64,000 nucleotides of DNA. Source: Candidatus Bipolaricaulota bacterium (GTDB taxonomy: Bacteria; Bipolaricaulota; Bipolaricaulia; UBA7950; UBA9294). The notes beneath the pieces are model-generated. The model was not told where the DNA came from, made no database searches, and saw only the letters and a program-made list of their open reading frames with translations. The position numbers and the translations under genes were made by a program. Within the stretch, counting starts at the first letter, position 1, and every line of letters starts with the position of its first letter. The DNA is taken from NCBI GenBank assembly GCA_023132915.1, contig JAGLXM010000075.1, positions 1,165 through 65,164 of the forward strand, in the 5' to 3' direction. This document shows positions 21,571 to 61,377 of this stretch, piece by piece.

Positions 21571-21719
21571 GGTGCTAAACCTTGTGGGCGGTCTTCTTGC
21601 CCGTTGTAGGATAGAGCGGTCAGCCGATGGCAGCAACCAAGCGTGTCGAGGCTACCAGTCCGTTGATGGCGGCTACATAGACAGTGACTCTGGACAAGGT
21701 ATCTGAGGTGAGGTCTAAT

Positions 21720-22697
21720 ATGTTCAACGAAAAAATCATTCTGGTTACTGGTGGCACAGGCTCTTTTGGAAAGAAGTTCACGGAGATAGTCCTGAAAGAA
21801 CATGACCCAAAGGTAATTCGCATATTCTCAAGGGGTGAATTGCTGCAGCTGCAGATGCGCCAGCAGTTCAACGACGACCCGCGGTTGCGGTTTTTTATCG
21901 GCGATGTTCGGGACAGAGACCGCCTATCTCGCGCGATGAACGGTGTTGATATAGTTGTCCATACCGCTGCCTTGAAGCAGGTTCCAGCCTGTGAATATAA
22001 CCCCATTGAAGCTATAAGAACGAATATCGATGGTGCTGCAAACGTGATTGACGCAGCTATTGACAACGGAGTAGGAAAAGTTGTAGCGATAAGCACCGAT
22101 AAAGCTGTCCATCCTGTGAATCTGTATGGTGCTACTAAGCTTGTTGCCGAAAAGTTGTTTGTGCAGGGAAATGCCTATGCTGGTAAGCGCACGACCAAGT
22201 TTAGCGTCGTCCGCTATGGCAATGTTGTCGGCAGCCGTGGCAGTGTAATTCCTCTATTCCTCAAGCAGCGCGAGAACGGTAAGATTACTATCACGGACGA
22301 GAGGATGACCAGGTTTTGGATTACTCTGGAACAGGGCGTACGCTTTGTTATCAACTGTATTGAGCGGATGGAAGGCGGCGAGATTTTTGTGCCTAAGATT
22401 CCTAGCATGAAACTCATGGATCTAGTAGATGCTATCGCTCCAGACGCTCAAAAGGAGATTACTGGAATTCGCTCAGGAGAAAAAATCAACGAAGTTCTAC
22501 TCACGGAAGAGGAAGCCCGTCATGCTAGGGAGTTTGAATATTATTTTGTTATTGAACCTGAACACTCTTTCTGGGACAGTAATTCTCTCAACGGGGGAAA
22601 GGAACTTCCAGAGGGATTCCGATACACAAGCGGCAATAACAAGCATTGGTTAACCAAAGAGGAACTTCAAAAAATGGTAGGCGAAACCAATGGATAG
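21720..22697 (+). CDS. pseB: UDP-N-acetylglucosamine 4,6-dehydratase (inverting), PseB/FlaA1-like
   Basis: MFNEKIILVTGGTGSFGKKF.., ..DVRDRDRL.., ..YGATKLVAEKLF.., ..VRYGNVVGSRGSVIP.. . Track start is 21684; ATG 21720 is likely. Confidence 0.85.
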   Translation: MFNEKIILVTGGTGSFGKKFTEIVLKEHDPKVIRIFSRGELLQLQMRQQFNDDPRLRFFIGDVRDRDRLSRAMNGVDIVVHTAALKQVPACEYNPIEAIRTNIDGAANVIDAAIDNGVGKVVAISTDKAVHPVNLYGATKLVAEKLFVQGNAYAGKRTTKFSVVRYGNVVGSRGSVIPLFLKQRENGKITITDERMTRFWITLEQGVRFVINCIERMEGGEIFVPKIPSMKLMDLVDAIAPDAQKEITGIRSGEKINEVLLTEEEARHAREFEYYFVIEPEHSFWDSNSLNGGKELPEGFRYTSGNNKHWLTKEELQKMVGETNG

Positions 22698-23880
22698 GCT
22701 GGCAATTGACGGTGGTAAGCCTGTCCGCAAGAATCTTTTGCCCTATGGCCATCAGTGGGTTGATGAAGCAGATATTCAAGCGGTTGTCGAGGTATTACGC
22801 TCCGACTGGCTGACTACCGGACCCAAGGTAGAAGAGTTCGAACGGGCTTTTGCCGATTTTGTAGGGACAAAAGAAGCTGTGGCAGTGAGCAACGGTACGG
22901 CCGCCTTACACACAGCGATGCATACTGCTGGTACTGGGCCGGGTGACGAAGTGATCGTGCCGCCTATGACCTTCGCTGCCAGTGCCAATTGCGTCGTTTT
23001 CCAGGGCGGCACGCCGGTCTTTGCCGACGTAGACCCTGAGACGCTGCTACTCGATCCGGGCGCGGTTGAAGCGAAGATCACCCCGCCGCGTACAAAGGCG
23101 ATCATCGCCGTGGACTACGCTGGACAGCCGTGTGATTACGACGCGCTTCGGGCTATAGCAAATCGACATGACCTGATCCTGGTAGCAGATGCCTGCCACG
23201 CGCTTGGTGGCACTTACAAGGGACGGCCGGTTGGCTCTCTAGCCGATCTGAGCACCTTCAGCTTTCACCCAGTGAAACACATCACCACTGGTGAGGGCGG
23301 AATGATCACCACGGATGATCCCAAGCTAGCGCAGCGGATGCGGGTCTTTCGCAACCACGGTATCACCACAGACCACCGCCAGCGCGAACAGCAAGGCTCC
23401 TGGTTCTACGAGATGGTGGATCTGGGTTACAACTACCGCCTGACTGATTTACAGTGTGCGCTAGGGATTAGTCAGTTGCGTAAGTTATCTGTCTGGGTAG
23501 CGCGTCGCCAAAAGATCGCGCGACGTTATGATGAGGTATTTGCCGAGGTCCCTGCTGTAGAGCCACTGGCTGTGCGAGAAGACGTTTCGCACGCGTATCA
23601 CCTTTACATGGTTAAACTCGATCTCACTAAATTGAGGGTGACGAGGGCTGAGGTATTCGCTGCCTTGCGCGCCGAAAATATCGGCGCCAACGTACATTAC
23701 ATTCCTGTGTGCTGGCATCCTTATTATCAGCGATTAGGCTACAAACGAGGATTGTGTCCTGTGGCAGAGACAGCTTATGAGCAACTGCTTACATTGCCTA
23801 TGTTTCCGGCAATGAGTGACCAGGATGTTGACGATGTAATAGAAGCGATGCAGAAGGTGATTGGATGTTATGCGGCCTGA
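22690..23880 (+). CDS. pseC: DegT-family aminotransferase, PseC-like
   Basis: 396 aa. ..LSTFSFHPVKHITTGEGGMI.. . Follows pseB with an 8-nt overlap. Confidence 0.85.
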   Translation: MDRLAIDGGKPVRKNLLPYGHQWVDEADIQAVVEVLRSDWLTTGPKVEEFERAFADFVGTKEAVAVSNGTAALHTAMHTAGTGPGDEVIVPPMTFAASANCVVFQGGTPVFADVDPETLLLDPGAVEAKITPPRTKAIIAVDYAGQPCDYDALRAIANRHDLILVADACHALGGTYKGRPVGSLADLSTFSFHPVKHITTGEGGMITTDDPKLAQRMRVFRNHGITTDHRQREQQGSWFYEMVDLGYNYRLTDLQCALGISQLRKLSVWVARRQKIARRYDEVFAEVPAVEPLAVREDVSHAYHLYMVKLDLTKLRVTRAEVFAALRAENIGANVHYIPVCWHPYYQRLGYKRGLCPVAETAYEQLLTLPMFPAMSDQDVDDVIEAMQKVIGCYAA

Positions 23881-24886
23881 GAGGCTTCGTTTTCTTGTTA
23901 TTGGGTGTGGCTCTATTGGGGAGCGCCATATTAGCAACCTGATTGCGCTGAACATGGAGGATATTCTAGCCTTCGATGTCCGAAGCGACCGCCGAGGTGA
24001 GGTGGAATCTCGGCTTGGTATCACAACGTTGGATAACCTGGAGGATGCGTGGGGGCGCCGCCCTGATGTTGCCTTGATCACAGTGCCCACCAGCTTGCAT
24101 GTTCCATTGGCGCTGCAAGCCGCCGAGCACGGGTGTCATTTGTTTATCGAGAAGCCCTTATCAGACCGGCTGGAAGGTGTGGATGTGCTGTTGGAGGCTG
24201 TGAGAGAGCGTAACCTTGTAACGCTGGTGGGGTGTAACATGCGTTTCCACCCAGGGTTGATGCAGGTTAAAGCATTAATTGAGGGAGGGGCGGTTGGGCA
24301 TGTGATTGCTGCGCGGGTGGAAGTAGGGCAGTATTTGCCTGATTGGCATCCGTTGGAGGACTACCGGCATGCCTACAGCGCTCAGCAAGATCTGGGGGGT
24401 GGGGTGATCCTCGACGCCATCCATGAGATTGACTACGTCCGGTGGATGCTCGGCGAGGTGGAAACCGTTGCTTGTTTCGCTGGCAAGCTCAGCCACCTGG
24501 AAATCGAGACTGAAGATACAGCAGCCATCTTGCTTCGTTTTGTCAGCGGCGCGATCGGTGAAGTCCATATGGACTATGTACAGCGCGCGTATAGCCGGAC
24601 ATGTCAAATCATCGGGGACGAAGGAACAATCCGTTGGAATTATACGATCGATGAGGTGCAATGGTACTCTGCAGCAACGCGGGAATGGCAGGTATTTAAA
24701 AATCCATCTGGTTGGGAGCCCAATCAGATGTACCTGGACGAGATGCAGCATTTTCTAAGATGCTTAGCCAGGGAAGAGAAACCGACTTTGGATGTTTCTG
24801 AGGGTGCACGAGTGTTAGAAGTAGCAGTAGCAGCCAAGGCCTCGGCCAAAACTGGGCAGCTTATGGCACTGCGAGGTTATCGATGA
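23861..24886 (+). CDS. Gfo/Idh/MocA-family oxidoreductase
   Basis: 341 aa. FLVIGCGSIGERH and LFIEKPL. Confidence 0.75.
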   Translation: MDVMRPERLRFLVIGCGSIGERHISNLIALNMEDILAFDVRSDRRGEVESRLGITTLDNLEDAWGRRPDVALITVPTSLHVPLALQAAEHGCHLFIEKPLSDRLEGVDVLLEAVRERNLVTLVGCNMRFHPGLMQVKALIEGGAVGHVIAARVEVGQYLPDWHPLEDYRHAYSAQQDLGGGVILDAIHEIDYVRWMLGEVETVACFAGKLSHLEIETEDTAAILLRFVSGAIGEVHMDYVQRAYSRTCQIIGDEGTIRWNYTIDEVQWYSAATREWQVFKNPSGWEPNQMYLDEMQHFLRCLAREEKPTLDVSEGARVLEVAVAAKASAKTGQLMALRGYR

Positions 24887-25656
24887 CCCAGAAACCAAAG
24901 GTTGTAGCCATCATTCAAGCCCGTATGGGCTCCGCACGACTGACGGGCAAGGTATTGATGGATATCGCCGGAAAGCCGATGTTGTGGCACGTGGTACATC
25001 GAGCTAGCCAATCCAAGTTGGTCGATAAAGTCGTCATCGTCACAAGCACCAACAAGTCCGATAATCTTATCGTTACCTTTGCCCGGACAAACGATATTCC
25101 CTGCTTTCGAGGGAGCGAAGACGATGTGCTGGACCGCTACTATCAGGCAGCTAAATGGATGAGCGCAGATGTAATCGTCCGCATTACAGCGGATTGTCCA
25201 CTTATTGATCCGGATATAGTGGATAAGGTCGTTCGTAGCTACATGAATGGCGATTACGACTACGTGTCCAACACCAATCCGCCGATGTATCCTGATGGGT
25301 TGGATACAGAGGTGTTCTCATTGGAAGCGCTAAAGCGTACATGGTATGAGGCAGGACTCCAATCGGAACGCGAGCATGTGACGCCATATATACGGAAGCA
25401 TCCAGAGTTATTTCGCATCGGGAATGTCAGATATGGGAGAGACTTATCGAGTATGCGATGGACGGTTGATGATTCGCGGGATCTGGAGTTCGTGCGGGCA
25501 GTGCATGGGTATTTGGGGAGTAATTCGTTCACTGTGGCCAATGTGCTGAGTCTCTTGAAGAAACACCCAGAGCTGATGGAGATCAATGCCGGTATTGGAC
25601 GTAACGAAGGGTATCAGAAGTCCCTGCGCGAGGATGGTTTGATTGCCCCCGAGTAG
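24883..25656 (+). CDS. Cytidylyltransferase (CTP_transf_3; SpsF/PseF-like)
   Basis: 257 aa. VVAIIQARMGSARLTGKVL..., ITADCPLIDP. Confidence 0.75.
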   Translation: MTQKPKVVAIIQARMGSARLTGKVLMDIAGKPMLWHVVHRASQSKLVDKVVIVTSTNKSDNLIVTFARTNDIPCFRGSEDDVLDRYYQAAKWMSADVIVRITADCPLIDPDIVDKVVRSYMNGDYDYVSNTNPPMYPDGLDTEVFSLEALKRTWYEAGLQSEREHVTPYIRKHPELFRIGNVRYGRDLSSMRWTVDDSRDLEFVRAVHGYLGSNSFTVANVLSLLKKHPELMEINAGIGRNEGYQKSLREDGLIAPE

Positions 25657-25697: not shown

Positions 25698-27011
25698 ATG
25701 GAGTTCACAGGCCAAGAACTTTATGAGAAGGCTCGAAGAAGAATCCCGGGAGGCACGCAACTGCTTTCAAAGCGTCCGGAGATGTTCCTCCCCGAGCAGT
25801 GGCCCAGCTACTATTCCAGAGCTAAGGGCGTTGAAACCTGGGGATTGGATGGCAAGAAGTACATCGATATGAGCTACTGTGGGATTGGCGCGTGTGTGTT
25901 GGGATTTGCTGATCCTGATGTAGACAAGGCTGTGCATACTGCTATTGATTCCGGCTCTATGACTACCTTGAATTGCCCTGAGGAGGTAGAACTGGCTGAC
26001 TTGCTCTGCGAACTCCATCCCTGGGCTGATATGGTTCGTTACGCCCGCACTGGGGGAGAAGCGATGGCAATCGCCGTTCGCATAGCACGTGCCAGAACAA
26101 AGCGGGATAAGGTGGCTTTTTGTGGATATCATGGTTGGCACGATTGGTATCTGGCTGCTAACCTTGGAGAGGATGACGTTCTTGATGGTCATTTGCTGCC
26201 AGGACTAGAGCCAGCCGGTGTGCCACGTGGCCTTGTCGGAACAGCCCTTCCTTTCCACTACAACAGGATTGATGAACTGGAAGCTATAGTCTCAGCTCAT
26301 AGGGAAGAGTTGGCGGCGATTGTGATGGAGCCGGTGAGAAATCACGACCCTGAGCCGGGTTTCTTAGAGCGAATCAGAGAGATCGCAACAGGGATTGGGG
26401 CCGTCTTGATCTTTGATGAGGTGTCATCGGGCTGGCGATTGAACACAGGTGGAGCACATCTCGTATACGGGGTGATACCCGACATCGCCGTTTTTGCGAA
26501 AGGTATTAGCAATGGCTATCCTATGGCCGCGATCATCGGAATTGAGGACGTCATGCAGGCAGCACAGAGCAGCTTTGTTAGTAGTACATATTGGACGGAG
26601 AGGATTGGCCCAACTGCAGCACTAGCAACGATTCGAAAACACCAACGTGATGATGTCTCGAAGCATTTGATAGCGGTTGGTAAGCGTATTCAATCGGGTT
26701 GGAAAGCGGCTGCGGATCGTGCTGGACTAGCTATTACTGTCACCGGCATTCCCCCTTTGGGCCATTTCTCGTTCAGTTACAACAATGGACTAGCGATCCG
26801 TACCCTGTTTACTCAGATGATGCTTGGGAAAGGGTTCCTGGCAACCAATGCATTCTACGCTACCTACGCGCACCAGAACACCCATATAGAGAGTTACCTA
26901 GCGGTGGTTGAACGGTCATTTGAGTTCTTGGCCGAGGCCATTGAAAAAGGTGAGGTGGAAAGACTTTTGAAAGGGCCTATCGCCCATTCGGGATTCCAGC
27001 GGTTGACTTGA
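25698..27011 (+). CDS. Class-III aminotransferase (glutamate-1-semialdehyde aminomutase-like)
   Basis: 437 aa. ..ARTGGEAMAIAVRIAR.., ..LIFDEVSSGWR.., ..DIAVFAKGISNGYP.. with the PLP lysine. Confidence 0.8.
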   Translation: MEFTGQELYEKARRRIPGGTQLLSKRPEMFLPEQWPSYYSRAKGVETWGLDGKKYIDMSYCGIGACVLGFADPDVDKAVHTAIDSGSMTTLNCPEEVELADLLCELHPWADMVRYARTGGEAMAIAVRIARARTKRDKVAFCGYHGWHDWYLAANLGEDDVLDGHLLPGLEPAGVPRGLVGTALPFHYNRIDELEAIVSAHREELAAIVMEPVRNHDPEPGFLERIREIATGIGAVLIFDEVSSGWRLNTGGAHLVYGVIPDIAVFAKGISNGYPMAAIIGIEDVMQAAQSSFVSSTYWTERIGPTAALATIRKHQRDDVSKHLIAVGKRIQSGWKAAADRAGLAITVTGIPPLGHFSFSYNNGLAIRTLFTQMMLGKGFLATNAFYATYAHQNTHIESYLAVVERSFEFLAEAIEKGEVERLLKGPIAHSGFQRLT

Positions 27012-28069
27012 TTTCATTGGCAAAGGGATTCCCAGTGAACAAACCTCTTATCATTCGCGCCGACGCAAATACTCATATAGGCACCGGCCACTTAATGCGC
27101 TGTCTGGCTCTGGCTCAGGCTTGGAAAGATTCTGGTGGAGAAGTTGCCTTCATCACCGCTTGTGAAAGCGACGGTTTGCTGCAGCGCCTTTTAGACGAAG
27201 GGTTTCAAATCGTTACTGTGGAGCGATCTTATCCCGATCCTGCTGATTTGGAAGCCACCTCTCAGGTTCTAGCGGCACATCCAAACGCATGGGTGGTGTT
27301 GGATGGGTATCACCTTGACGAAGTCTACCAGAAACAGGTAAAAGAGGCTGGCCATCCGCTGCTCGTGATAGACGATATGGCTCACTTAGAGCACTACTAC
27401 GCGGATATTGTGCTGAACCAGAATCTGCATGCAGCGCAGTTGCACTACTCCTGTGAGCCCTATACCCAGCTTCTGCTTGGTACCCAATACGTGCTTCTTC
27501 GACGTGAGTTCCTGGAGTGGCAGGACTGGAAGCGGGAGATTCCAGAGGTGGCGCGGAAAGTGCTGGTTACACTGGGCGGTGGCGACCCTGACAACGTAAC
27601 TCTTAAGGTAGTCCGAGCACTGCAACAAGTAAACGTGGACGATCTTGAGACGGTAGTCGTCGTTGGTGCCAGCAATCCGCATTTTCGAGAACTTCAATCC
27701 GCAATCCGCAATCCGCAATCCGCAATCCGTCTTGTCCAAAACGTTACTAACATGGCGGAATTGATGGCCTGGGCCGATGTGGCGATTTCTGCGGGGGGGA
27801 GTACCTGCTGGGAGTTGGCGTTTATGAGATTACCCAGTGCGATTTTGGTTTTGGCAGAGAATCAAGAAGAAACAGTACGAATGTTGACGGAGCGAGCGGT
27901 TTTTCTCAGCCTTAGAGATGGACACAACACCCAGTTACAAGATATTGCACAAGCACTTACACATTTACTGCTGAACCATGAGATTCGAAGAAAACTAAGT
28001 CAAAAGGCCTCTCTTTTGCTAGATGGCTTAGGGGCCCTTAGGGTTATAGAAGCTTTATCTGGAATTTAA
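27008..28069 (+). CDS. pseG: UDP-2,4-diacetamido-2,4,6-trideoxy-beta-L-altropyranose hydrolase, PseG-like
   Basis: 353 aa. LIIRADANTHIGTGHLMRCLALAQ.. and ..ISAGGSTCWELAFMRLPS.. (GT28-C-like). Start codon uncertain (TTG in the track). Confidence 0.75.
   Translation: MISLAKGFPVNKPLIIRADANTHIGTGHLMRCLALAQAWKDSGGEVAFITACESDGLLQRLLDEGFQIVTVERSYPDPADLEATSQVLAAHPNAWVVLDGYHLDEVYQKQVKEAGHPLLVIDDMAHLEHYYADIVLNQNLHAAQLHYSCEPYTQLLLGTQYVLLRREFLEWQDWKREIPEVARKVLVTLGGGDPDNVTLKVVRALQQVNVDDLETVVVVGASNPHFRELQSAIRNPQSAIRLVQNVTNMAELMAWADVAISAGGSTCWELAFMRLPSAILVLAENQEETVRMLTERAVFLSLRDGHNTQLQDIAQALTHLLLNHEIRRKLSQKASLLLDGLGALRVIEALSGI
27695..27729 (+). repeat. Perfect tandem heptanucleotide CAATCCG x5 inside the pseG-like CDS
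   Basis: caatccg caatccg caatccg caatccg caatccg, encoding ..QSAIRNPQSAIR.. . An extra copy lies at 27673-27679. Confidence 0.95.
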
Positions 28070-28086: not shown

Positions 28087-28662
28087 ATGACTACATTGCG
28101 CGACATCCAGCCGGATGATAAAGATATGATCCGTAATTGGCATAACTTGCCTGAGGTTGCCAAGTGGATGTATGCGGATCATTATATTTGTGCTGAAGAA
28201 CATGAGCAATGGTTTCAGGATATATTTAGTGATCCTTCACGGCAGTATTGGATCATCATGTATGGTCAGGAAGATGTTGGCCTTGTCAATTTGTATGACA
28301 TAGACTACAGGAATAAACGATGCTATTGGGCCTTTTACGTGGCAAATCCAAATGTGCGAGGAAAAGGAGTTGGGAGCTTTGTAGAATATTCAATCTTGTC
28401 GCACGTGTTCGACGAGCTTGAGTTCAATAGATTATGTTGCGAAGTTCTGGCTTCCAACCAGCTAGTTGTAGAGATGCATAAGAGTTTTGGATTTGTTCAA
28501 GAAGGTCACTTTCGTCAGCACGTCATCAAAGGGGGGCAACCTATAGATGTCGTGTTCTTGGCGATTTTGAAAGAAGAATGGGAATCCAAGAGAATCAAAA
28601 TCAAACAGAGATTGAACAAGAAAAGAGTTGCTTTACCTGTAGAAGAAGGACACAAGATGTGA
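28087..28662 (+). CDS. pseH: GNAT acetyltransferase, PseH-like
   Basis: 191 aa. LRDIQPDDKDMIRNWHNLPEVAKWMY.. and ..VRGKGVGSF.. . Position after pseG. Confidence 0.75.
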   Translation: MTTLRDIQPDDKDMIRNWHNLPEVAKWMYADHYICAEEHEQWFQDIFSDPSRQYWIIMYGQEDVGLVNLYDIDYRNKRCYWAFYVANPNVRGKGVGSFVEYSILSHVFDELEFNRLCCEVLASNQLVVEMHKSFGFVQEGHFRQHVIKGGQPIDVVFLAILKEEWESKRIKIKQRLNKKRVALPVEEGHKM

Positions 28663-28925: not shown

Positions 28926-29684
28926 ATGGGTATACAGGATCTTAGAAATCATCGACCCACGGCAATAGTAACAGGAAGTTCACGTGGAATTGGGCGGGTT
29001 ATTGCCCTGAAACTGGCTAACGCTGGTTACAATCCTGTTGTAAACTACAAGGAATCCCAAACTGCTGCTGAATCGTTGGGCTTGGAATTGGAGCAGATGG
29101 GGACCGAGTATCTCCTTTGCCGGGCCAATGTGAGCGCTTGGGATGACGTAGTACAAATGCGCGACCAAGTTTTGGAAAGATGGGGTCACATTGACCTTTT
29201 AGTCAATAATGCGGGCATCATCTTGGATGCGTTGTTTCATAAGATGGCGAAAGAAGACTGGCAACAAGTGATTGATACTAATTTGACGGGCGTGTTCAAT
29301 TGTGCTCGTGTGTGCGTGTCACAGATGATGGAGCAAGGGTATGGCAAGATAATCAATATCTCGTCTTTTGTGGCGCTTAAAGGGAATATCGGTCAAGCGA
29401 ATTATGCTGCCGCAAAAGCTGGCATCATAGGTTTCTCTAAGACCTTAGCCCTTGAGTTAGCGAAATACGAGATCACCGTCAATGTTATTGCGCCTGGGTT
29501 CATCGAGACCGATATGTTGAGTGAATTGCCGGAACGTATACGGGAAAAACTCATAGCACAAATCCCGCAGCGCCGATTTGGCACACCGGAGGATATAGCA
29601 CAAGCTGTTCTCTATCTGGCAGGTAAATCGGGAGATTACATCACTGGCCAAGTACTGAACATCAATGGCGGAATCTATATGTAA
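28926..29684 (+). CDS. 3-oxoacyl reductase (FabG/PhaB-like classical SDR)
   Basis: 252 aa. IVTGSSRGIGR, NNAG, YAAAKAG, PGFIETDM. Confidence 0.85.
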   Translation: MGIQDLRNHRPTAIVTGSSRGIGRVIALKLANAGYNPVVNYKESQTAAESLGLELEQMGTEYLLCRANVSAWDDVVQMRDQVLERWGHIDLLVNNAGIILDALFHKMAKEDWQQVIDTNLTGVFNCARVCVSQMMEQGYGKIINISSFVALKGNIGQANYAAAKAGIIGFSKTLALELAKYEITVNVIAPGFIETDMLSELPERIREKLIAQIPQRRFGTPEDIAQAVLYLAGKSGDYITGQVLNINGGIYM

Positions 29685-29697
29685 AGGAGATATCCGG

Positions 29698-30861
29698 ATG
29701 AAAGATTGTTACATTATCGGTGGTTTACGGACGCCGATCGGCAATTTTGGCAAAGGTTTAGCGAGTGTGCCTGCACCGGAACTGGGAGGGATCCTTGTGA
29801 AGGAGTTCATCACTCGTGAGGTCTGTGATCCAGATCAAGTGGATCAAGCCGTGTTCGGCAATGTACTTCAGGCAGGAGCAGGAATGAACCCTGCACGTCA
29901 GGCAGCTATCAAGGGCGGACTCCCTTACAGTGTACCAGCATACACGGTAAATATGGTTTGTGCCTCGGGTCTTTACTCAGTTGTTCTGGGTGATCAAGCG
30001 ATAAGCCGTGGACAAGCTCACTCGGTAATCGCTGGCGGGTTTGAGAACATGAGCCGTGCTCCACGTGCGTTGCTCAAGTCACGTTGGGGAAATCCTCTTG
30101 GTCATGACCGTGCAGTGGATTTAATGCTTACAGATGGATTGTGGGATGTGTTCTACGATGTTCACATGGCCGTTACGGTGGAAGCTCTTGTGAAACGATA
30201 TGAGATTTCTAGGCAAGCCCAGGACGAGTTTGCACTGGAAAGTCACAAAAGGGCCATTACTGCGATACGTACAGGTAAGTTTGGCGATGAAATTGTGCCG
30301 GTACAGGTAAAAGGGGTACAAGTAAAGCAAGATGAACGGCCCCGCGCTGACACAACGCTGGAAAAACTTACTAGTTTGAAGCCGGCCTTCAACCCCAATG
30401 GAACTATCACAGCTGGCAATGCTTCTGGATTGAACGATGGAGCAGCGGCTGTAGTTCTCTCCTCTGAGAAACCCTCGTTGAATGGCGCAATTCACGCCGA
30501 GATCGTTGATAGTGCCCTAATCGCTGTTGATCCTATGGACATGGGCATTGCACCGGTTCTTGCCATACGAAAACTACTGGCAAACACAAAACTTGAGCTT
30601 GAAGATGTGGGGCTGTGGGAGATTAACGAAGCCTTTGCAGGGCAAATGCTTGCAGTGTTAAAGGAGATTCCGGTGCCGTTGGACAAGCTCAACGTAAACG
30701 GAGGCGCCATCGCTTTGGGGCATCCAATTGGCTGTTCGGGAGCCAAGATCTTGGTTACCCTGCTTCATGAGATGCGGCGCCGAGAGGTGGAGCATGGAGT
30801 GGTAGCTCTATGTGTGGGTGGGGGTTTGAGTGTAGCTGTATTGGTACGCTATCTTGGATAA
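29698..30861 (+). CDS. Acetyl-CoA C-acetyltransferase (thiolase II)
   Basis: GGLRTPIG, ..VNMVCASGL.. (active-site Cys), ..NVNGGAIALGHPIGCSGA.. . RBS aaaggaga lies before ATG 29698. Confidence 0.85.
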   Translation: MKDCYIIGGLRTPIGNFGKGLASVPAPELGGILVKEFITREVCDPDQVDQAVFGNVLQAGAGMNPARQAAIKGGLPYSVPAYTVNMVCASGLYSVVLGDQAISRGQAHSVIAGGFENMSRAPRALLKSRWGNPLGHDRAVDLMLTDGLWDVFYDVHMAVTVEALVKRYEISRQAQDEFALESHKRAITAIRTGKFGDEIVPVQVKGVQVKQDERPRADTTLEKLTSLKPAFNPNGTITAGNASGLNDGAAAVVLSSEKPSLNGAIHAEIVDSALIAVDPMDMGIAPVLAIRKLLANTKLELEDVGLWEINEAFAGQMLAVLKEIPVPLDKLNVNGGAIALGHPIGCSGAKILVTLLHEMRRREVEHGVVALCVGGGLSVAVLVRYLG

Positions 30862-30983: not shown

Positions 30984-32036
30984 ATGGCTTCATCTATCGA
31001 GATTAGCAGACGACGTATTGGACCTGCATATCCTGTGTACATCGTCGCTGAGATGTCGGCCAATCATAATCAGAACTTTGACAGAGCCGTTAAGATCCTC
31101 GAAGCTGCCAAAGAAGCTGGCGCGGATGCTGTAAAGCTGCAGACCTACACGCCAGACACCATGACCATTGACATTGATTCGGAGTTATTCCGTCATGGCA
31201 AAGGATCGCTCTGGGCTGGCCGGACTCTCTATGACCTTTACAGCGAGGCCTACATGCCCTGGGATTGGCAACCGAAACTGAAAAAGATTGCAAATGATTT
31301 GGGATTGGACTTGTTCTCTACAGCTTTTGATCCCTCAGCCGTGGACTTCTTAGAAGAGATAGACGTGCCCGTTCACAAGATAGCATCATTCGAGATTGTG
31401 GATATCGCCTTGGTCGAACACATGGCCCGTACCGGCAAGCCGATTATCATCTCTACTGGCATGGCAACGCTGGCAGAGATTGAAGAAGCCGTACGAACGG
31501 CACAGGAGGCTGGCGCGAACCAGATTGCGCTCTTGAAGTGTACGAGCGCGTATCCGGCCCCACCCGAGGAGATGAACCTGCACACCATTCCCCATCTTGC
31601 CCAAGCATTCAACGTGCCCGTAGGACTTTCCGACCATACCCTTGGCATAGCCGTTCCGGTGGCGGCGGTGGCTCTCGGTGCATGCATTGTCGAGAAGCAC
31701 TTCACCCTTTCACGGGCTGCGCCTGGACCCGATTCTGCCTTTTCTTTGGAGCCACACGAGTTCAAGGCGATGGTAGAAGCCATCAGGGTCGCGGAGAAGG
31801 CATTGGGAGAAGTACGGTACGAGCTGGGCGAACGCGAAGCAGCCAGCCGGGCCTTCCGCCGGTCGCTCTTCGTGGTAAAGGACATGAAAGCCGGCGAAGT
31901 GTTTACCGAGGAGAACGTCCGCTCCATCCGGCCGGGATATGGGTTGCCTCCGAAGCTCCTGAAAGAAGTGCTTGGCCGCCGAGTAGCACAGGAGATTGGA
32001 CGGGGAACGCCATTGGATTGGTGTCTTGTTGCATAA
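30984..32036 (+). CDS. pseI: Pseudaminic acid synthase (NeuB family), PseI-like
   Basis: 350 aa. ..YIVAEMSANHNQNFDRAVKILEAAKEAGADAVKLQTY.., ..LLKCTSAYPAP.., C-terminal SAF domain. Confidence 0.9.
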   Translation: MASSIEISRRRIGPAYPVYIVAEMSANHNQNFDRAVKILEAAKEAGADAVKLQTYTPDTMTIDIDSELFRHGKGSLWAGRTLYDLYSEAYMPWDWQPKLKKIANDLGLDLFSTAFDPSAVDFLEEIDVPVHKIASFEIVDIALVEHMARTGKPIIISTGMATLAEIEEAVRTAQEAGANQIALLKCTSAYPAPPEEMNLHTIPHLAQAFNVPVGLSDHTLGIAVPVAAVALGACIVEKHFTLSRAAPGPDSAFSLEPHEFKAMVEAIRVAEKALGEVRYELGEREAASRAFRRSLFVVKDMKAGEVFTEENVRSIRPGYGLPPKLLKEVLGRRVAQEIGRGTPLDWCLVA

Positions 32037-32090: not shown

Positions 32091-32592
<502 letters not shown>

Positions 32593-34424
32593 CTGGCCCG
32601 ACTTTGACAACGCCAAACGAGAAGTGCTGTTCCGAAGGGCAATACAGGGATCGTCAAGGTCGCGTGGCACTACGCTTTGGGTCAGCGAGCGTCTCAGTCG
32701 AGTCGTTCGATCCGTCGAGGAGGGACGATCTTCAGCGCCTGGAACGCTGCCATGCTGACAGCGGGGATCTCGTCGCGCATTCGGTAGCGGCTTCCGTTGC
32801 CGTCATCTAGCACCACCGCCCGCACCCGCGACAGTCCCTCCATTAGCTCGACGAACGACCCGTCGAACGATCGCTCCGCCAACCGCTTCTTGAGGATCTG
32901 CCGTAGGATGAACGCGAGGAAGCAAACGGTGATGTGCCCACGGACCCGTTGCGCGGTCCAGTGGTAGATCGGACGAAGCTCCAGCGGTGTCTTCAGCATC
33001 CGGGACGCTTCCTCCACCTGCCACAGCCTCTTGTACGCCACCGCCGCCTCGGCAGCCGTCAGTCGGGCGTCGTTGGTCCGTAGCACCCACTTCCCGTCGT
33101 AGCGAGCATCCGCTTCGATCTTCCGTCGATCGAGTGATGCTCCACCGGCCTGGGTCCGTACGTACCGCCGTGCCGCTCCTCGCAGCAACCCCTTCACCGA
33201 TCCCGTCTCCAGGCGCTTGCTGAGCATCTCAACGATCGCTTCCCGTTCCCGTCGGTCCGCCTCCACCGCCTCGGGGTTGCGACAGACGATGTAGCGGTCC
33301 TCGACATCGGGAAGGTCGACCTCTTTCACCTCGAGGTTGTCGGCGACGGTGTGGTAGCGTCCCGAGTGGGACAGGACCTCCTGGGCGACCTTGTCTCGTC
33401 GCAGCTTCGTCGCCACCAGGTACGGCATCCCAACTTCACGCAACGCTTGCAGGTTCGCCTCGGTCACCATCCCACGATCACAGCAGAGCATCACTCGTTT
33501 CACTCCGAGCGTCTCTCGTACCGCCTCAACCGCCAGACGAAACGCTGAGGGGTCGGCGGTGTTCCCCGGGAAGATCACGTGGGCCACCGGAAGTCCTTTC
33601 CTCGTCATTACCACCCCCAGGCCGACTTGCCGTCGATCCCCGCGGTGATCTCGCGAGTAGCCAAACGCTGCCAACTCCTCGGGGTGGGTCCCTTCCACGT
33701 ACGTCGAAGTGGTGTCGAAGTACAACAGATCGGTGTCGGTGAACAGATCCCGATGACGGGCGAACCATCCCGCCTCGACGTCATTCTTCACCTCGGCGAG
33801 GCGATCGAGTGAGCGGTACAGATCGTGCAGTTCGAGATCGTCAAACGGCGCACCGTAGACGTCGTCGCGGAAGCGCAGCGCAGCGCACTTCGATCCCGGA
33901 TCGACCAGTCGATGCAGCACCATCAAGTAGACAGCATCCGCCTGTCGTTGCGTAAGTCCGGCGTCCTTGATGATCGGAGCGAACGTCTCCATCCACAAGC
34001 GCCCCCACACCAGCGAAGCTCCCCAGATCCGTGTCTCCACTCTGGATCGATCGCTGAGGAGGATCGATTCGAGCTCGGCGTAGCGGTTCGCAGTCTCTAC
34101 CAGCGAACCGAGACCCTTGCGCAGCCGTGGATCGTCAGTCCGTCCCAGTGTGGCCAGCACCCGTTGGCGGGTCTTTCCATCGACGCGGCGGTTCTCGACG
34201 AGTTGGAGGTAGGTGGTAACGGTGCCATCCTGGTTGCGTCGCTTCTTCTCGCGGATGAACATGACACCTCATGATACCACACATTCATCAGGCAGAGAAG
34301 GGGACATCCATCACTAACGTGGCACCACAAAGCACCTCTCAAACGACCCTCGACACTACCGAAACCCAGTTCCCTTGGCATCGAGGTATCCAGAAAGCGC
34401 CGATTCTTGTCAAAGTCGGGCCAG
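32593..34424 (-). mobile_element. IS1634-family insertion sequence with perfect 18-bp terminal inverted repeats
   Basis: CTGGCCCGACTTTGACAA at 32593-32610 and its exact reverse complement TTGTCAAAGTCGGGCCAG at 34407-34424. Single 522-aa transposase inside. Visibly GC-richer than its surroundings. No matching flanking direct repeat seen. Confidence 0.85.
32694..34262 (-). CDS. IS1634-family (IS4-like DDE) transposase
   Basis: 522 aa. N-terminus MFIREKKRRNQDGTVTTYLQLVENRRVDGKTRQRVLATLGR is typical of IS1634 transposases. Confidence 0.9.
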   Translation of the reverse strand: MFIREKKRRNQDGTVTTYLQLVENRRVDGKTRQRVLATLGRTDDPRLRKGLGSLVETANRYAELESILLSDRSRVETRIWGASLVWGRLWMETFAPIIKDAGLTQRQADAVYLMVLHRLVDPGSKCAALRFRDDVYGAPFDDLELHDLYRSLDRLAEVKNDVEAGWFARHRDLFTDTDLLYFDTTSTYVEGTHPEELAAFGYSRDHRGDRRQVGLGVVMTRKGLPVAHVIFPGNTADPSAFRLAVEAVRETLGVKRVMLCCDRGMVTEANLQALREVGMPYLVATKLRRDKVAQEVLSHSGRYHTVADNLEVKEVDLPDVEDRYIVCRNPEAVEADRREREAIVEMLSKRLETGSVKGLLRGAARRYVRTQAGGASLDRRKIEADARYDGKWVLRTNDARLTAAEAAVAYKRLWQVEEASRMLKTPLELRPIYHWTAQRVRGHITVCFLAFILRQILKKRLAERSFDGSFVELMEGLSRVRAVVLDDGNGSRYRMRDEIPAVSMAAFQALKIVPPRRIERLD

Positions 34425-39610: not shown

Positions 39611-40696
39611 ATGAGCAAAGTACTAATTACTGGCATAACAGGGCAGGATGGTTCCTACCTAGCTGAGCTATTGCTCCATAAAGGATATGAGGTTCATGGC
39701 CTTATCCGTCGCGCCAGCACCTTCAACACAGACAGGATCGATCATATCTATCGAGATCCCCATGATCCTAATGCACGGCTCTTTCTTCACTACGGGGACC
39801 TCGCGAACGGCGAGCAGCTCTCAAACCTGATCTACAATGTGAAGCCGGACGAGATTTATCACTTGGGAGCCCAAAGCCATGTGCGGGTGAGCTTTGACAC
39901 TCCGGAGTACACTGGTGATGTAACTGGTTTAGGCACCACGCGCATTCTGGAAGCCATCCGCCGAAGCGGTATCAAGACTCGGTATTACCAGGCCTCTAGT
40001 TCGGAGATGTTCGGCGCTGCTGCCCCACCACAGAGTGAGAACACGCCCTTCCGGCCGCAGAGCCCTTACGCTTGCGCGAAAGTGTACGCTTATTGGATGG
40101 CAGGTAACTATCGGGATGGGTACAATCTTTTTGCCTGCAACGGCATTCTCTTCAACCATGAGTCACCAAGGCGAGGTGAGACCTTCGTTACCCGTAAGAT
40201 TACACGCGCTATTGCCCACATCCTTGAGGGGAGGCAGAAGAAGCTCTACCTGGGGAATCTCAAGGCCAAGCGCGACTGGGGCTATGCTCCAGAGTATGTC
40301 GAGGCGATGTGGCTGATGCTCCAACAGGATCGCCCTGACGATTTCGTGATCGGAACCGGAGAGACGCACTCGGTGCAGGAGTTCCTGGAGGAGGCGTTCG
40401 CCTACGTGAATCTGGATTGGCAGGAGTACGTGGAGATTGACCAACGCTACTTCCGACCGACCGAGGTTGAGTTCCTGCTGGCCGATCCTTCGAAGGCTAA
40501 GGAAAAACTGGGATGGGTGCCGAAGATCACGTTCAAGGAACTTGTAAGGATCATGGTCGATGCTGACATGGAGGCGATTGGTCTAGAGCCTATTGGCGAG
40601 GGCAAGAGGATCATGGAAGAGAAGTTTACCGGTTGGCATCGCTGGGACACGGGCGTGAAGGCGGTGTATGAGAATACGAGGAGAGCAGTTGAGTAG
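39611..40696 (+). CDS. gmd: GDP-mannose 4,6-dehydratase
   Basis: 361 aa. [34 protein letters not shown], ..SSEMFG.., ..[12 protein letters not shown].., ..[19 protein letters not shown].. . Confidence 0.95.
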
Positions 40697-40797
40697 GGAA
40701 ATTGTTGAGTAGTTGAGTGGGAAAAGCGAAGGAACGGAGGGCCAGGTGAAGAGGGAAATGGTTAAGTGGAGGAGTGGTTGAGTGGGAGGAATGGATG
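40687..40797. repeat. GTTGAGTRG-word low-complexity repeat; left terminal inverted repeat of the gmd|fcl insertion
   Basis: agttgagtagggaaattgttgagtagttgagtgggaaaagc .. ggttaagtggaggagtggttgagtggg. Its outer part is the reverse complement of 42006-42039. It supplies the gmd stop codon. Confidence 0.65.
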
Positions 40798-41262
40798 AGT
40801 CCACGTCGTCTATATCTAGACACCAGTGTCTATAACCGACCCTTCGATGGCCTCTCACAAGCACGAGTCTGGCTCGAAGCGTTAGCCTTCGCTACTATAC
40901 TGCAGATGATTGAATTGGGCGGTGTAGAATTAGTAAGCTCTGAGGTATTAGAGTTTGAGAACAGCAGGAATCCCTTTTCCCATAGAAGGGCGTGGGTAAG
41001 CTTTTATCTGAGTTTGGCCAAAGATTACCAGGAATTGGATGAGTCGATCCGTAAGCGAGCGCAAGGTTTGGAAAGCAAGAGATTGGAACCACTCGATGCT
41101 TTACATCTGGCCTGTGCAGAGGGAGCTGAGGCTGAATATTTCATAACCTGCGATGATCGGATCATAAAGAGATACCAAGGGGAAGCACTGAAAGTGATGA
41201 ACCCCGTGAATTTTGTGATCAGTGAGGTGATAGGAGATGGCGGAGATCAAGGTGAACAGTGA
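40795..41262 (+). CDS. PIN-like domain protein (putative toxin)
   Basis: About 155 aa. LYLDTSVYNRPFD.. N-terminal acidic motif, ..DALHLACAEGAEAEYFITCDDRIIKR.. C-terminal PIN-like motif. Confidence 0.6.
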   Translation: MSPRRLYLDTSVYNRPFDGLSQARVWLEALAFATILQMIELGGVELVSSEVLEFENSRNPFSHRRAWVSFYLSLAKDYQELDESIRKRAQGLESKRLEPLDALHLACAEGAEAEYFITCDDRIIKRYQGEALKVMNPVNFVISEVIGDGGDQGEQ

Positions 41263-41911: not shown

Positions 41912-41920
41912 GGACAACAC

Positions 41921-61352: not shown

Positions 61353-61377
61353 CAATTGCGGTTTACTTGATGTAGGG

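What the first reader, a model, noticed from the sequence alone, without database searches (positions are those of the whole stretch)
27695..27729. Perfect heptanucleotide tandem repeat (CAATCCG x5) inside the pseG-like gene
A 7-nt unit is not a multiple of three, so gain or loss of one unit by slipped-strand mispairing would frameshift the gene. That would truncate it before the GGSTCWE nucleotide-sugar-binding region. This is the classic architecture of a contingency (phase-variable) locus, and here it would switch pseudaminic-acid production on and off. The motif belongs to the same heptamer-repeat style as the intergenic modules, and another copy lies 16 nt upstream.
Basis: partly seen in the sequence, partly recalled or inferred. 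Interest (0 to 1): 0.62.

Follow-up and report, generated by a model that had tools for sequence, protein, structure and literature searches.

The report
Slippage-prone heptamer repeat inside pseG
A perfect five-copy, 7-base repeat lies inside pseG, a surface-sugar gene of an uncultured sediment bacterium; the repeat is old and shared by the whole gene clade, and it has knocked the gene out in two related lineages by losing whole units, so it can switch the gene off, but nothing shows that it flips often or reversibly.

Summary
CAATCCG x5 (27695-27729) lies in frame inside a genuine pseG, within a complete pseB/C/G/H/I cluster. Only 2, 5 or 8 units keep the frame. Any other number gives a stop at 27748 or 27762, before the GGSTCWE motif.

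The repeat is not specific to this strain. Eight orthologues with 64-74% protein identity carry a heptamer array at the same codons, always five units. Unit variants spread between units, and one subgroup has a different heptamer (ATTCACC) throughout. The array is among the four best-conserved 12-codon stretches of the gene at DNA level, yet only average at protein level. It is therefore a concertedly evolving coding microsatellite.

Two related lineages carry split, frameshifted pseG genes that are exactly 7 and 14 nt shorter within the array. Whole-unit slippage that inactivates the gene does therefore occur in nature.

Frequent switching is not supported. About 118 of 120 relatives are intact, and every lineage is uniform across independent assemblies. 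No 4-unit allele appears in contigs from four runs; six units cannot be resolved, and raw reads were unavailable.

Verdict: a mutable frameshift hot spot held at five units by selection. Whether it is a true contingency locus is unproven. In passing, (CAATCCG)n arrays turned up in many phyla, including in frame inside housekeeping proteins.

The parts
27695..27729 (+). Perfect tandem array (CAATCCG)x5, in frame in pseG. It encodes QSAIRNPQSAIR, residues 230-241 of the 353-aa reading.
   Evidence: In the AlphaFold model it spans the end of helix 226-232, loop 233-238 and the start of strand 239-244.
27673..27679 (+). Isolated CAATCCG copy. It forms the S-N-P codons of the conserved GASNPH motif, 15 nt upstream of the array.
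   Evidence: In homologues this site varies synonymously (AGCAATCCA, AGTAACCCC and others), so it is not part of the conserved array.
27008..28069 (+). pseG (UDP-2,4-diacetamido-2,4,6-trideoxy-beta-L-altropyranose hydrolase). The alternative GTG start at 27035 gives the 344-aa product found in public assemblies.
   Evidence: TIGR03590 263 bits against a cut-off of 153.6. PF04101. Protein P0001 is identical on 5 contigs. PDB 3HBM (C. jejuni PseG) aligns through the segment with a 1-aa gap.
27748..27750 (+). TAA stop used when the array has 3 or 6 units (frame after +1 unit).
   Evidence: tail ...NPSCPKRY*.
27762..27764 (+). TGA stop used when the array has 4 or 7 units (frame after -1 unit). 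The same stop ends the natural OFF allele P0263.
   Evidence: tail ...SVLSKTLLTWRN*., P0263 tail ...VGLFETLRICLN*.
27794..27814 (+). GGSTCWE motif of the C-terminal Rossmann domain. It is lost in every out-of-frame product.
   Evidence: (invariant G264-E269 in 30 homologues).
28087..28662 (+). pseH, 18 nt downstream of pseG. It may suffer polarity if pseG terminates early (inference).
   Evidence: TIGR03585 153 bits against a cut-off of 93.
21684..23880 (+). pseB (21684-22697) and pseC (22690-23880), the first steps of the same pathway.
   Evidence: TIGR03589 513 bits against 408; TIGR03588 488 bits against 424.
30984..32036 (+). pseI (pseudaminic acid synthase), the last gene of the cluster.
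   Evidence: TIGR03586 498 bits against a cut-off of 340.

Best explanation
The array is an old coding heptanucleotide microsatellite, inherited vertically within a clade of Anaerolineales-type pseG genes. It replaces no domain. It encodes the end of a helix, a loop and the start of a beta-strand in the C-terminal Rossmann domain.

Only five units give a protein of the right frame and length, so purifying selection holds the number at five. Slipped-strand mispairing or gene conversion keeps exchanging units. This homogenises the array (concerted evolution) and keeps it far more conserved at DNA level than the encoded peptide requires.

The same slippage occasionally removes whole units, frameshifts the gene and splits PseG before its nucleotide-sugar-binding half. 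This has happened in at least two related lineages. The array therefore works as a mutational hot spot that can turn pseG, and hence pseudaminic-acid synthesis, off. In principle it can turn it back on. The rate is low enough that every sampled lineage is uniformly ON or uniformly OFF.

Shown: the array, its frame consequences, its conservation at five units, the concerted unit changes, and the -7 and -14 nt natural alleles. Inferred: slippage as the mechanism, loss of enzyme function in the split alleles, reversibility, and the low rate.
For: 1. The array and its frame logic are established.

2. Orthologue DNA carries the array at the same codons with five units:
- L002: perfect CAATCCG x5.
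- L003: CAATCTG x2 + CAATCCG x3.
- L004: CAATCCG x4 + CGATTCG.
- L005: a mix of CAATCCG and CAATTCG.
- L006: CAATCTG x3, CGATCCG, CAATCCG.
- L142: CAATCCG, CAATCTG x3, CAATTCG.
- L145: CAATCCG, then (CAGTTCG CAATTCG) x2.

3. DNA-level conservation exceeds protein-level conservation.
- Among 331 12-codon windows, the array ranks 4th by nucleotide identity but only 94th by amino-acid identity.
- Window against L002: 0/35 differences, while the genes are 74% identical (P = 3e-5).
- All 21 differences from CAATCCG are transitions at unit positions 2, 3, 5 or 6. Ten of them are non-synonymous (R>C, P>L, S>F and others).

4. Whole-array unit change. The 'EAVHHSPFTIHL' subgroup fits an ATTCACC array with 3 mismatches in 33 nt, against 10 for CAATCCG. 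L150 retains two perfect ATTCACC units.

5. The periodicity runs through the clade. In 94 of 148 homologues the 12-aa segment fits a 5x heptamer with 7 or fewer mismatches. A control segment needs 11-15.

6. The two AIR copies sit in different secondary-structure elements, so the periodicity is not structural.

7. Natural OFF alleles exist.
- Between identical anchors, intact genes span 131 nt, L146 spans 124 (-7) and L150 spans 117 (-14).
- The N-terminal and C-terminal parts are in different frames. The C-terminal parts are intact 128-codon open frames.
- The alleles were assembled independently on 4+1 and 6+1 contigs.

8. The rate appears low.
- Of the 120 nearest relatives, 117 are full-length, one is a contig-end partial and two are OFF.
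- P0001 is identical on 5 contigs.
- No OFF allele of the window lineage and no ON allele of the OFF lineages was found.
- No indel appears in the contigs of four runs.
Against: - No read-level data were available, so low-frequency length variants in the window's population cannot be excluded. The rate could be higher than consensus assemblies suggest.
- Logan contigs use k = 31. They cannot resolve 5 against 6 perfect units, and they drop rare variants.
- Ascertainment is biased. The homologues were found by protein similarity, which favours intact genes. The unbiased flank-anchored DNA scan returned only 4 true loci, all with five units.
- Strong nucleotide conservation could also reflect an unrecognised DNA or RNA function rather than concerted evolution.
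- The stretch just downstream (27731-27785) is also unusually conserved at third codon positions. Unit turnover does not explain that.
Confidence: 0.6

Rival explanations
1. True contingency locus. The array is an evolved hypermutable switch that reversibly turns pseudaminic-acid decoration of the cell surface on and off at high frequency. This would let subpopulations escape phages or other surface-targeting pressures, as in neuO and pglE.
For: - It is a non-triplet coding repeat in a surface-glycan pathway gene, with immediate stops in both wrong frames.
- Natural OFF alleles arose by exact unit loss, and their C-terminal halves are otherwise undamaged, so they remain revertible.
- Homogenised units imply repeated slippage.
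- There are precedents for heptanucleotide coding switches in glycan genes: neuO (PMC13001214) and pglE (PMC7157529).
- Published classes rate 3 or more pentanucleotide units as hypermutable (PMC4235727), so five heptamers may qualify.
Against: - Repeat number is invariant at five in all eight intact genes with the array that were checked at DNA level.
- Only 2 of about 120 relatives are OFF, against 65.6% OFF and 3-53 repeats for neuO.
- Every lineage is uniformly ON or OFF across several assemblies.
- The OFF allele P0263 has persisted long enough to exist on two haplotypes.
- No 4-unit allele is present in four metagenome runs.
- The tract is short and sits in the folded core of the domain rather than in a tolerant N-terminal extension.
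- The same 4-6-unit arrays sit in frame in purL, metH, lon and a kinase domain, where switching is implausible.
Confidence: 0.25
2. Nucleotide-level functional element. The heptamer array and its conserved 3' flank form a binding site or structure in DNA or mRNA, for example for a heptamer-repeat-binding regulator as proposed for TAACTGA repeats. Selection on that function, not slippage, keeps it repetitive.
For: - The array is more conserved as DNA than as protein, and the stretch 27731-27785 has third-position identity 0.65-0.71 against a gene mean of 0.49.
- The same heptamer recurs in more than 120 loci of many phyla, often just upstream of ORFs.
- It often faces an inverted array that could form a hairpin.
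Against: - The RNA fold of 27640-27790 is weaker than that of shuffled sequences (z = +1.9).
- Rfam has no hit there.
- One subgroup has replaced the unit throughout by a different heptamer (ATTCACC). This fits turnover better than a fixed recognition sequence.
- Arrays elsewhere have no conserved flanks.
- The array lies about 360 nt from the next start codon.
Confidence: 0.1
3. Protein-level repeat or chance. The periodic DNA simply reflects selection for a duplicated peptide (SAIR...SAIR) together with codon preference.
For: The peptide segment aligns without an insertion to distant PseG, including C. jejuni 3HBM with a 1-aa gap. Consensus residues L-Q..A....IRL are shared.
Against: - The two AIR copies lie in different structural elements.
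- Unit variants cause non-conservative changes (R>C, P>L, S>F) that are tolerated.
- Unit positions 1, 4 and 7 never change, whatever the codon phase.
- Perfect identity of 35 nt between genes that are 74% identical has P = 3e-5.
- A control segment shows no heptamer fit.
Confidence: 0.03

Closest known systems
neuO of E. coli K1 (CUS-3 prophage polysialic-acid O-acetyltransferase) with its (AAGACTC)n coding repeat
   Same: It is a heptanucleotide tandem repeat inside the coding sequence of a gene that acts on a nonulosonic-acid surface glycan. Frame, and so full-length translation, depends on unit number modulo 3. Strand slippage is the mechanism (PMC13001214).
   Different: [quoted passage not shown] That it forms a dispensable extension of the protein is my recollection.
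- It is long and highly polymorphic: 3-53 units, and 65.6% of 64 genomes are OFF.
- It is mixed within a culture: 93% with 21 units, 2% with 20 and 5% with 22.
- Here the tract has five units, lies inside the folded Rossmann domain, is fixed at five in all intact relatives, and OFF alleles are rare (2 of about 120).
pglE of Neisseria meningitidis (protein-glycosylation galactosyltransferase) with a heptanucleotide repeat
   Same: It is a coding heptanucleotide repeat controlling ON/OFF of a surface-glycan gene (PMC7157529).
   Different: pglE switches measurably during carriage in a host-adapted pathogen. No switching has been observed here, and the organism is a free-living sediment bacterium.
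Poly-G tracts in Campylobacter jejuni capsule, LOS and flagellar glycosylation genes
   Same: These are slippage-driven frameshift switches in surface-glycan genes (PMC4235727). The link to the flagellar glycosylation (pseudaminic/legionaminic acid) locus is from my own knowledge.
   Different: The tracts are mononucleotide, with rates of 1e-4 to 1e-3 in a mismatch-repair-deficient host. To my knowledge pseG itself is not the variable gene there.
Heptamer direct-repeat families: TAACTGA of Beggiatoaceae, Cyanobacteria and Bacteroidetes, and cyanobacterial STRR
   Same: One specific heptamer recurs as short direct arrays at many loci and in distant phyla. No transfer mechanism is known. The arrays are mostly intergenic or close to start codons, and occasionally lie inside ORFs (PMC4679880). 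(CAATCCG)n behaves similarly.
   Different: - TAACTGA carries stop codons in the forward orientation and sits at the periphery of proteins.
- CAATCCG is stop-free in all six frames and is found inside conserved domains.
- The pseG array is vertically conserved in orthologues. This was not described for TAACTGA.
Rickettsia palindromic elements (in-frame selfish repeats in protein genes); recalled from memory, not tested
   Same: Repetitive DNA is tolerated as in-frame inserts in housekeeping proteins. Some CAATCCG arrays come as inverted pairs inside coding sequence, for example in ArsA, PurL and a DUF1553 protein.
   Different: RPEs are dispersed elements of 100-150 bp with a conserved sequence. 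The elements here are short tandem arrays without conserved flanks. The pseG array is not an insertion relative to distant homologues.

Membership tests
SSR-mediated translational phase variation (contingency locus) | Tandem repeat with a non-triplet unit inside the coding sequence | tested here: met
   CAATCCG x5, 100% perfect, in frame in pseG.
SSR-mediated translational phase variation (contingency locus) | Change of unit number shifts the frame and abolishes the full-length product | tested here: met
   Only 2, 5 or 8 units are in frame. Other numbers stop at 27748 or 27762 and give 233-247 aa without GGSTCWE. Loss of activity is inferred.
SSR-mediated translational phase variation (contingency locus) | Repeat number differs among strains or relatives, with both ON and OFF alleles | tested here: inconclusive
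   Two related lineages are OFF by exactly -7 and -14 nt. All eight intact genes with the array that were checked at DNA level have five units. About 118 of 120 relatives are intact. No lineage shows both states.
SSR-mediated translational phase variation (contingency locus) | Length heterogeneity within one population, with a high switching rate of about 1e-5 to 1e-2 per division | not testable with these tools
   Only Logan contigs (k = 31) were available. They show no 4-unit allele and no indels in four runs, but they drop rare variants and cannot resolve six units.
SSR-mediated translational phase variation (contingency locus) | Reversibility (OFF alleles revert to ON through the same tract) | not testable with these tools
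   The evidence is indirect. The OFF alleles keep intact C-terminal open frames. Homogenised units imply repeated loss and gain.
SSR-mediated translational phase variation (contingency locus) | Tract length in the experimentally hypermutable range | tested here: inconclusive
   No rate data exist for five heptamers. Published classes put 3 or more pentanucleotide units in the hypermutable class (PMC4235727). The known heptanucleotide switch neuO has 3-53 units, most commonly 20 (PMC13001214).
PseG (UDP-2,4-diacetamido-2,4,6-trideoxy-beta-L-altropyranose hydrolase, TIGR03590) | Scores above the curated equivalog cut-off | tested here: met
   263.2 bits against 153.55, covering profile positions 3-279 of 280.
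PseG (UDP-2,4-diacetamido-2,4,6-trideoxy-beta-L-altropyranose hydrolase, TIGR03590) | Lies in a pseudaminic-acid cluster with pseB, pseC, pseH and pseI | tested here: met
   All four score above their cut-offs in the same + strand gene run. The cytidylyltransferase at 24883-25656 is below the PseF cut-off.
PseG (UDP-2,4-diacetamido-2,4,6-trideoxy-beta-L-altropyranose hydrolase, TIGR03590) | GT-B two-Rossmann fold related to the solved C. jejuni PseG | tested here: met
   phmmer hit to 3HBM, E = 3.5e-13, over residues 14-297. The AlphaFold model has pLDDT 89 and alternating beta/alpha elements. No fold search was run.
Dispersed heptamer direct-repeat families (STRR / TAACTGA type) | The same heptamer occurs as short direct arrays at many unrelated loci and in several phyla | tested here: met
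There are 20 in viral contigs, against 0 and 6 for two composition-matched shuffles.
Dispersed heptamer direct-repeat families (STRR / TAACTGA type) | Many copies of the array within the same genome | tested here: not met
   Within the 64-kb window this is the only CAATCCG array and the only perfect heptamer array of 3 or more units. Only imperfect heptamer or octamer modules occur elsewhere. The rest of the genome was not available.

The most novel reading that the evidence does not exclude
The pseG array may be a vertically fixed instance of a cross-phylum class of heptamer arrays that are stop-free in all six frames (CAATCCG and relatives). These arrays would be generated or propagated by an as yet unknown heptamer-specific process.

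The arrays are tolerated, or used, as in-frame inserts even inside catalytic domains of housekeeping proteins. Examples are a kinase activation loop and the linkers of PurL, MetH, Lon and ArsA. They often occur as inverted pairs that could form hairpins.

In pseG such an array has been kept for a long time. It doubles as a low-rate frameshift switch for a surface sugar.
Probability: 0.3. Interest if true: 0.75.

Novelty: new member of a known kind. Interest (0 to 1): 0.5.

Why it matters
If the array switches pseG, uncultured sediment Chloroflexota use the same trick as host-adapted pathogens: a heptanucleotide coding repeat in a nonulosonic-acid gene that varies a surface glycan. That would extend contingency-type loci to free-living, slow-growing bacteria, where phages are the likely selective agent.

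Even if it does not switch, it is an unusually clear natural example of three things:
- a coding microsatellite held at one copy number for a long evolutionary time;
- concerted evolution of its units, including complete replacement of the unit sequence;
- documented whole-unit deletions that split the gene.

The side observation may be the larger question. The same heptamer recurs in more than 120 loci of many phyla, and period 7 dominates all other short periods there. The arrays sit in frame inside conserved proteins. This points to a heptamer-specific mutational or mobile process that has so far been described only for cyanobacteria, Beggiatoaceae and a few Bacteroidetes.

Tried and rejected
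1. Cyanobacterial origin (STRR). I rejected this because the homologues are labelled Anaerolineales and the sequence occurs in cold-seep metagenomes.

2. The array as an insertion. I rejected this because no indel separates it from 30 homologues, and only 1 aa separates it from C. jejuni PseG.

3. Copy-number census by flank-anchored pattern in metagenome contigs. Of 15 hits, 11 are chance matches and 4 are true, all with five units. That is too few to be decisive.

4. Search for OFF-allele peptides with the predicted tails of the window gene. It found only short spurious (QSAIRNP)n ORFs from other arrays. Two first attempts failed because the minimum query length is 40 aa.

5. Read-level heterogeneity. 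Only Logan contigs (k = 31) exist for the runs. The contigs break inside the perfect array, because pure-repeat 31-mers are shared with hundreds of other loci (depth 5,000-14,000x).

6. Looking for ON/OFF mixtures in the samples that carry the OFF alleles.

7. RNA structure or a known RNA family at the array. There is none: the fold z-score is +1.9 and Rfam has no hit.

8. Conserved flanks or target-site features around CAATCCG arrays elsewhere (a MITE-like model). Base frequencies are nearly flat, with only a weak pyrimidine bias upstream.

9. ON counterparts of the OFF lineages among the proteins held. The nearest are about 80% identical.

10. Literature search for the heptamer sequence itself gave no paper. 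Two further searches found nothing on heptamer arrays in Planctomycetes or Acidobacteria beyond the TAACTGA paper.
Full report
**1. The observation**

Positions 27695-27729 read CAATCCG five times without a mismatch. Tandem Repeats Finder gives period 7, 5.0 copies, 100% matches and score 70. It is the only perfect heptamer array of three or more units in the window.

A further CAATCCG lies at 27673-27679, with 15 nt between it and the array. That copy is the S-N-P part of the conserved GASNPH motif. Single heptamers are not enriched in the window: 13 were found against 10 expected.

The ORF 27008-28069 is PseG. TIGR03590 scores 263 bits against a cut-off of 153.6, and PF04101 also matches. 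Public assemblies call it from the GTG at 27035, which gives 344 aa. It lies in a complete pseudaminic-acid cluster:
- pseB, 21684-22697
- pseC, 22690-23880
- a cytidylyltransferase, 24883-25656
- pseG
- pseH, 28087-28662
- pseI, 30984-32036

**2. Consequences for the reading frame**

I replaced the array by 2 to 8 units in silico.
- Only 2, 5 and 8 units stay in frame.
- With 4 or 7 units translation ends at TGA 27762-27764.
- With 3 or 6 units it ends at TAA 27748-27750.
- The truncated products are 233-247 aa and lack the invariant GGSTCWE motif (27794-27814).

**3. Where the sequence comes from**

The nearest proteins are metagenomic, and the few that are named are Anaerolineales MAG proteins. 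The stretch is held in full by three cold-seep metagenome runs. The exact protein was assembled on 5 contigs.

**4. The array is shared by the gene clade**

In an alignment of 30 homologues with 60-74% identity there is no indel at the array, except for a 1-aa gap in one sequence. The consensus peptide ELQSAxRNSQFAIRL is itself the translation of CAATCCG and CAATTCG units. C. jejuni PseG (PDB 3HBM) aligns through the segment with a single 1-aa gap, so the array is not an insertion.

I fetched DNA for nine intact homologues. Seven of them, like the window, carry five heptamer units at the same codons:

| Locus | Units |
|---|---|
| L002 | CAATCCG x5, perfect |
| L003 | CAATCTG x2, CAATCCG x3 |
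| L004 | CAATCCG x4, CGATTCG |
| L005 | CAATCCG and CAATTCG mixed |
| L006 | CAATCTG x3, CGATCCG, CAATCCG |
| L142 | CAATCCG, CAATCTG x3, CAATTCG |
| L145 | CAATCCG, (CAGTTCG CAATTCG) x2 |

Two more distant homologues (L143, L144) are degenerate.

From protein sequences alone, 94 of 148 homologues have a 12-aa segment that fits a 5x heptamer with 7 or fewer nucleotide mismatches. A control segment needs 11-15.

**5. The periodicity is a DNA-level property that evolves in concert**

- Among 331 12-codon windows of the codon alignment, the array ranks 4th by nucleotide identity but 94th by amino-acid identity.
- The window and L002 differ at 0 of 35 array positions, although the genes are 74% identical (P = 3e-5).
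- All 21 departures from CAATCCG are transitions at unit positions 2, 3, 5 or 6. Positions 1, 4 and 7 never change.
- Ten of the 21 are non-synonymous (R>C, P>L, P>S, S>F, I>V, Q>R).
- The same variant recurs in neighbouring units of one gene.
- A whole subgroup ('EAVHHSPFTIHL') fits a different heptamer, ATTCACC, with 3 mismatches in 33 nt against 10 for CAATCCG.
- In the AlphaFold model (pLDDT 89) the array spans the end of helix 226-232, loop 233-238 and the start of strand 239-244. The two 'AIR' copies therefore have different structural roles.

Together these points indicate unit turnover by slippage or gene conversion, not selection for a repeated peptide.

**6. Natural frameshift alleles**

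A search with only the N-terminal 220 aa gave 120 top hits. Of these, 117 are full-length, one is a contig-end partial, and two are truncated: P0263 (243 aa) and P0252 (287 aa).

Their loci show split genes. I measured the distance between identical anchors, CTTGA... and ATGGCCTGGGC:
- intact genes span 131 nt;
- L146 spans 124 nt, a loss of 7;
- L150 spans 117 nt, a loss of 14.

L146 has four units (CAATTCG CGATTCG CGATTCG CAAGTCG). L150 has two perfect ATTCACC units where relatives encode four. The N-terminal and C-terminal halves lie in different frames. The C-terminal halves remain intact open frames of 128 codons with GGSTCWE or its close variant AGSTCWE.

The alleles were assembled independently on 4+1 and 6+1 contigs. 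The -7 allele occurs on two haplotypes that differ by E47K. Whole-unit loss that inactivates pseG is therefore a real, recurrent event in this clade.

**7. Evidence against frequent switching**

- All intact genes with the array that were checked at DNA level have five units.
- Only 2 of about 120 relatives are OFF.
- Each lineage is uniform. P0001 is ON on 5 contigs, P0003 on 7 and P0014 on 12, while P0263/P0272 are OFF on 5.
- No OFF allele of the window lineage exists among 5.8 billion proteins. It would have topped.
- No ON allele of the OFF lineages was seen.
- In four cold-seep runs no contig carries a 7-nt gap. A four-unit allele would be bridged by 31-mers. Divergent pseG contigs in the same runs bridge their imperfect arrays without gaps.

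By contrast, neuO has 3-53 units and 65.6% OFF genomes (PMC13001214).

There are caveats. Logan contigs drop rare variants and cannot resolve six perfect units. Protein-based ascertainment favours intact genes. The unbiased flank-anchored scan gave only 4 true loci.

**8. Interpretation**

Best explanation (0.6). This is a long-lived, concertedly evolving coding microsatellite, held at five units by selection for a functional PseG. Slippage occasionally produces null alleles that are, in principle, revertible.

Rivals:
- A genuine high-frequency contingency locus (0.25).
- A nucleotide-level binding or structural element (0.1). The RNA fold is weaker than that of shuffled sequences, Rfam has no hit, and the unit was replaced in one subgroup.
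- A protein-level repeat or chance (0.03).

**9. Comparison with known systems**

In mechanism it works like neuO and pglE, which are heptanucleotide coding repeats in glycan genes. It differs in three ways:
- the tract is short;
- it lies in the folded core of the domain;
- its copy number is fixed.

Membership in the contingency-locus class is unproven. The population-heterogeneity and reversibility criteria could not be tested.

**10. Wider context found on the way**

(CAATCCG)4 occurs in more than 120 stretches of GTDB representative genomes. The phyla include Acidobacteriota, Planctomycetota, Verrucomicrobiota, Gemmatimonadota, Chloroflexota, Bacteroidota and Nitrospirota. Arrays have 4 to 17 units.
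- In those 0.83 Mb, perfect arrays of period 7 number 231, of which 85 are other heptamers. Every other period from 4 to 9 has 20 or fewer.
- Of 125 arrays, 47 lie inside long open frames, almost always in the sense orientation that encodes QSAIRNP.
- Pfam confirms arrays inside a protein-kinase domain and a PSD1 domain. It also confirms arrays in the linkers of MetH, Lon, PurL and ArsA.
- 27 of the 125 arrays face an inverted array within 120 nt.
- The flanks are not conserved.
- Viral contigs hold 20 such loci, against 0 and 6 for two shuffled controls and 32 for TAACTGA.
- The only close description I found in the literature is the TAACTGA family (PMC4679880).

The same 4-6-unit arrays in essential genes weaken the inference that a heptamer array in a gene marks a contingency locus. 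They raise a separate question: what generates these arrays?

Noticed in passing
L007-L126 (GTDB genome contigs): Exact (CAATCCG)4 or longer occurs in more than 120 stretches of representative genomes from many phyla, including Acidobacteriota, Planctomycetota, Verrucomicrobiota, Gemmatimonadota, Chloroflexota, Bacteroidota and Nitrospirota. Arrays have 4-17 units, and some genomes hold several.
   Followed up: partly
L019:523-3633, L125:2276-5521, L115:4762-7998(-), L080:2653-5613, L056:954-4166, L024:4065-6185: CAATCCG arrays lie in frame, encoding QSAIRNP repeats, inside genuine housekeeping proteins. They sit within a protein-kinase domain and a PSD1 domain, and in the inter-domain linkers of MetH, Lon, PurL and ArsA. 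CAATCCG has no stop codon in any of the six frames.
   Followed up: partly
e.g. L024 about 5160-5235, L017, L056, L121, L075, L053: 27 of 125 arrays face an inverted heptamer array ((CGGATTT)n, (CGGAATG)n or (CGGATTG)n) within 120 nt; in the examples listed the spacer is about 15-25 nt. The pairs could form long hairpins with periodic mismatches. In L024, L056 and L125 both arms are inside coding sequence.
   Followed up: partly
L007-L126 as a whole (0.83 Mb): Perfect tandem arrays of 3 or more units number 231 at period 7, of which 85 are heptamers other than CAATCCG (58 distinct heptamers in all). The counts are 20, 1, 5, 11 and 3 at periods 4, 5, 6, 8 and 9. This suggests a heptamer-specific process in these genomes.
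   Followed up: no
window 27692-27735 in runs X1-X4: 31-mers made purely of the repeat have a summed depth of 5,000-14,000x, against 15-85x for the flanks. They come from about 150-270 different contigs per run with unrelated flanks. The depth is highest in X4, where the window organism is nearly absent. The heptamer array is therefore abundant in other members of the cold-seep community.
   Followed up: no
L153-L172 (viral contigs): (CAATCCG)4 occurs in 20 IMG/VR stretches, several holding 2-3 arrays. Two composition-matched shuffled heptamers give 0 and 6, and the known TAACTGA repeat gives 32.
   Followed up: no
window 40683-40790, 41446-41534, 41916-42039: Octamer arrays (GTTGAGTG and GTTAAGTG types) and their reverse complements form inverted modules. 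One example is 41450-41478 paired with 41501-41529, 22 nt apart. They flank a PIN-domain gene (40774-41262) and a small partner ORF (41237-41452). This pair is inserted between a probable GDP-mannose 4,6-dehydratase and an epimerase/reductase-like gene; both of those names are my reading of the translations, not tool results.
   Followed up: partly
window 61376-61491 and 63595-63613: An imperfect tandem array with a 9-nt unit (GTTCGTTGA and GGGTTCATT types), 18/36-nt super-periods and about 12.7 copies lies directly after a Polysacc_synt_2 gene (59496-61352). A short echo follows near 63595.
   Followed up: no
window 3050-3125: An intergenic run of imperfect heptamers (ATTCGAA, ATTCGCT, TTTCGCA, ATTCGAA) is related to the CAATTCG unit variant seen in pseG homologues. 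It lies just upstream of the ORF that starts at 3180.
   Followed up: no
window 23861-24886, 25698-27011, 28926-30861: Extra genes are interleaved in the pse cluster. They are a GFO/IDH/MocA oxidoreductase, a class-III aminotransferase, and a FabG-like 3-oxoacyl reductase plus an acetyl-CoA acetyltransferase between pseH and pseI. The last pair could supply a 3-hydroxybutyryl group, so the product may be a modified pseudaminic acid (inference).
   Followed up: no
window 32492-32608 (-) and 32694-34262 (-): There is an Rfam ALIL pseudoknot hit (75.9 bits). Next to it is an IS1634-family transposase gene, directly downstream of pseI.
   Followed up: no
P0055, P0078, P0115, P0075, P0076, P0120 (protein homologues): A few intact homologues have in-frame length changes inside the array-encoded segment: +6 aa ('AASLPP' and 'AALLPS' types), +2 aa and -1 aa. 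These lengths are not multiples of 7 nt. Their DNA was not examined.
   Followed up: no
L150:717-1754: The locus with the -14 nt pseG allele also carries a second, divergent PseG/MurG-like gene (345 aa) without an array. It might compensate for the split gene.
   Followed up: no
window 27731-27785: The 55 nt just after the array are also unusually conserved at third codon positions among orthologues: 0.65-0.71 against a gene mean of 0.49. Part of this stretch (GCGGAATTGATGG, 27755-27767) is a near reverse complement of the repeat unit.
   Followed up: no
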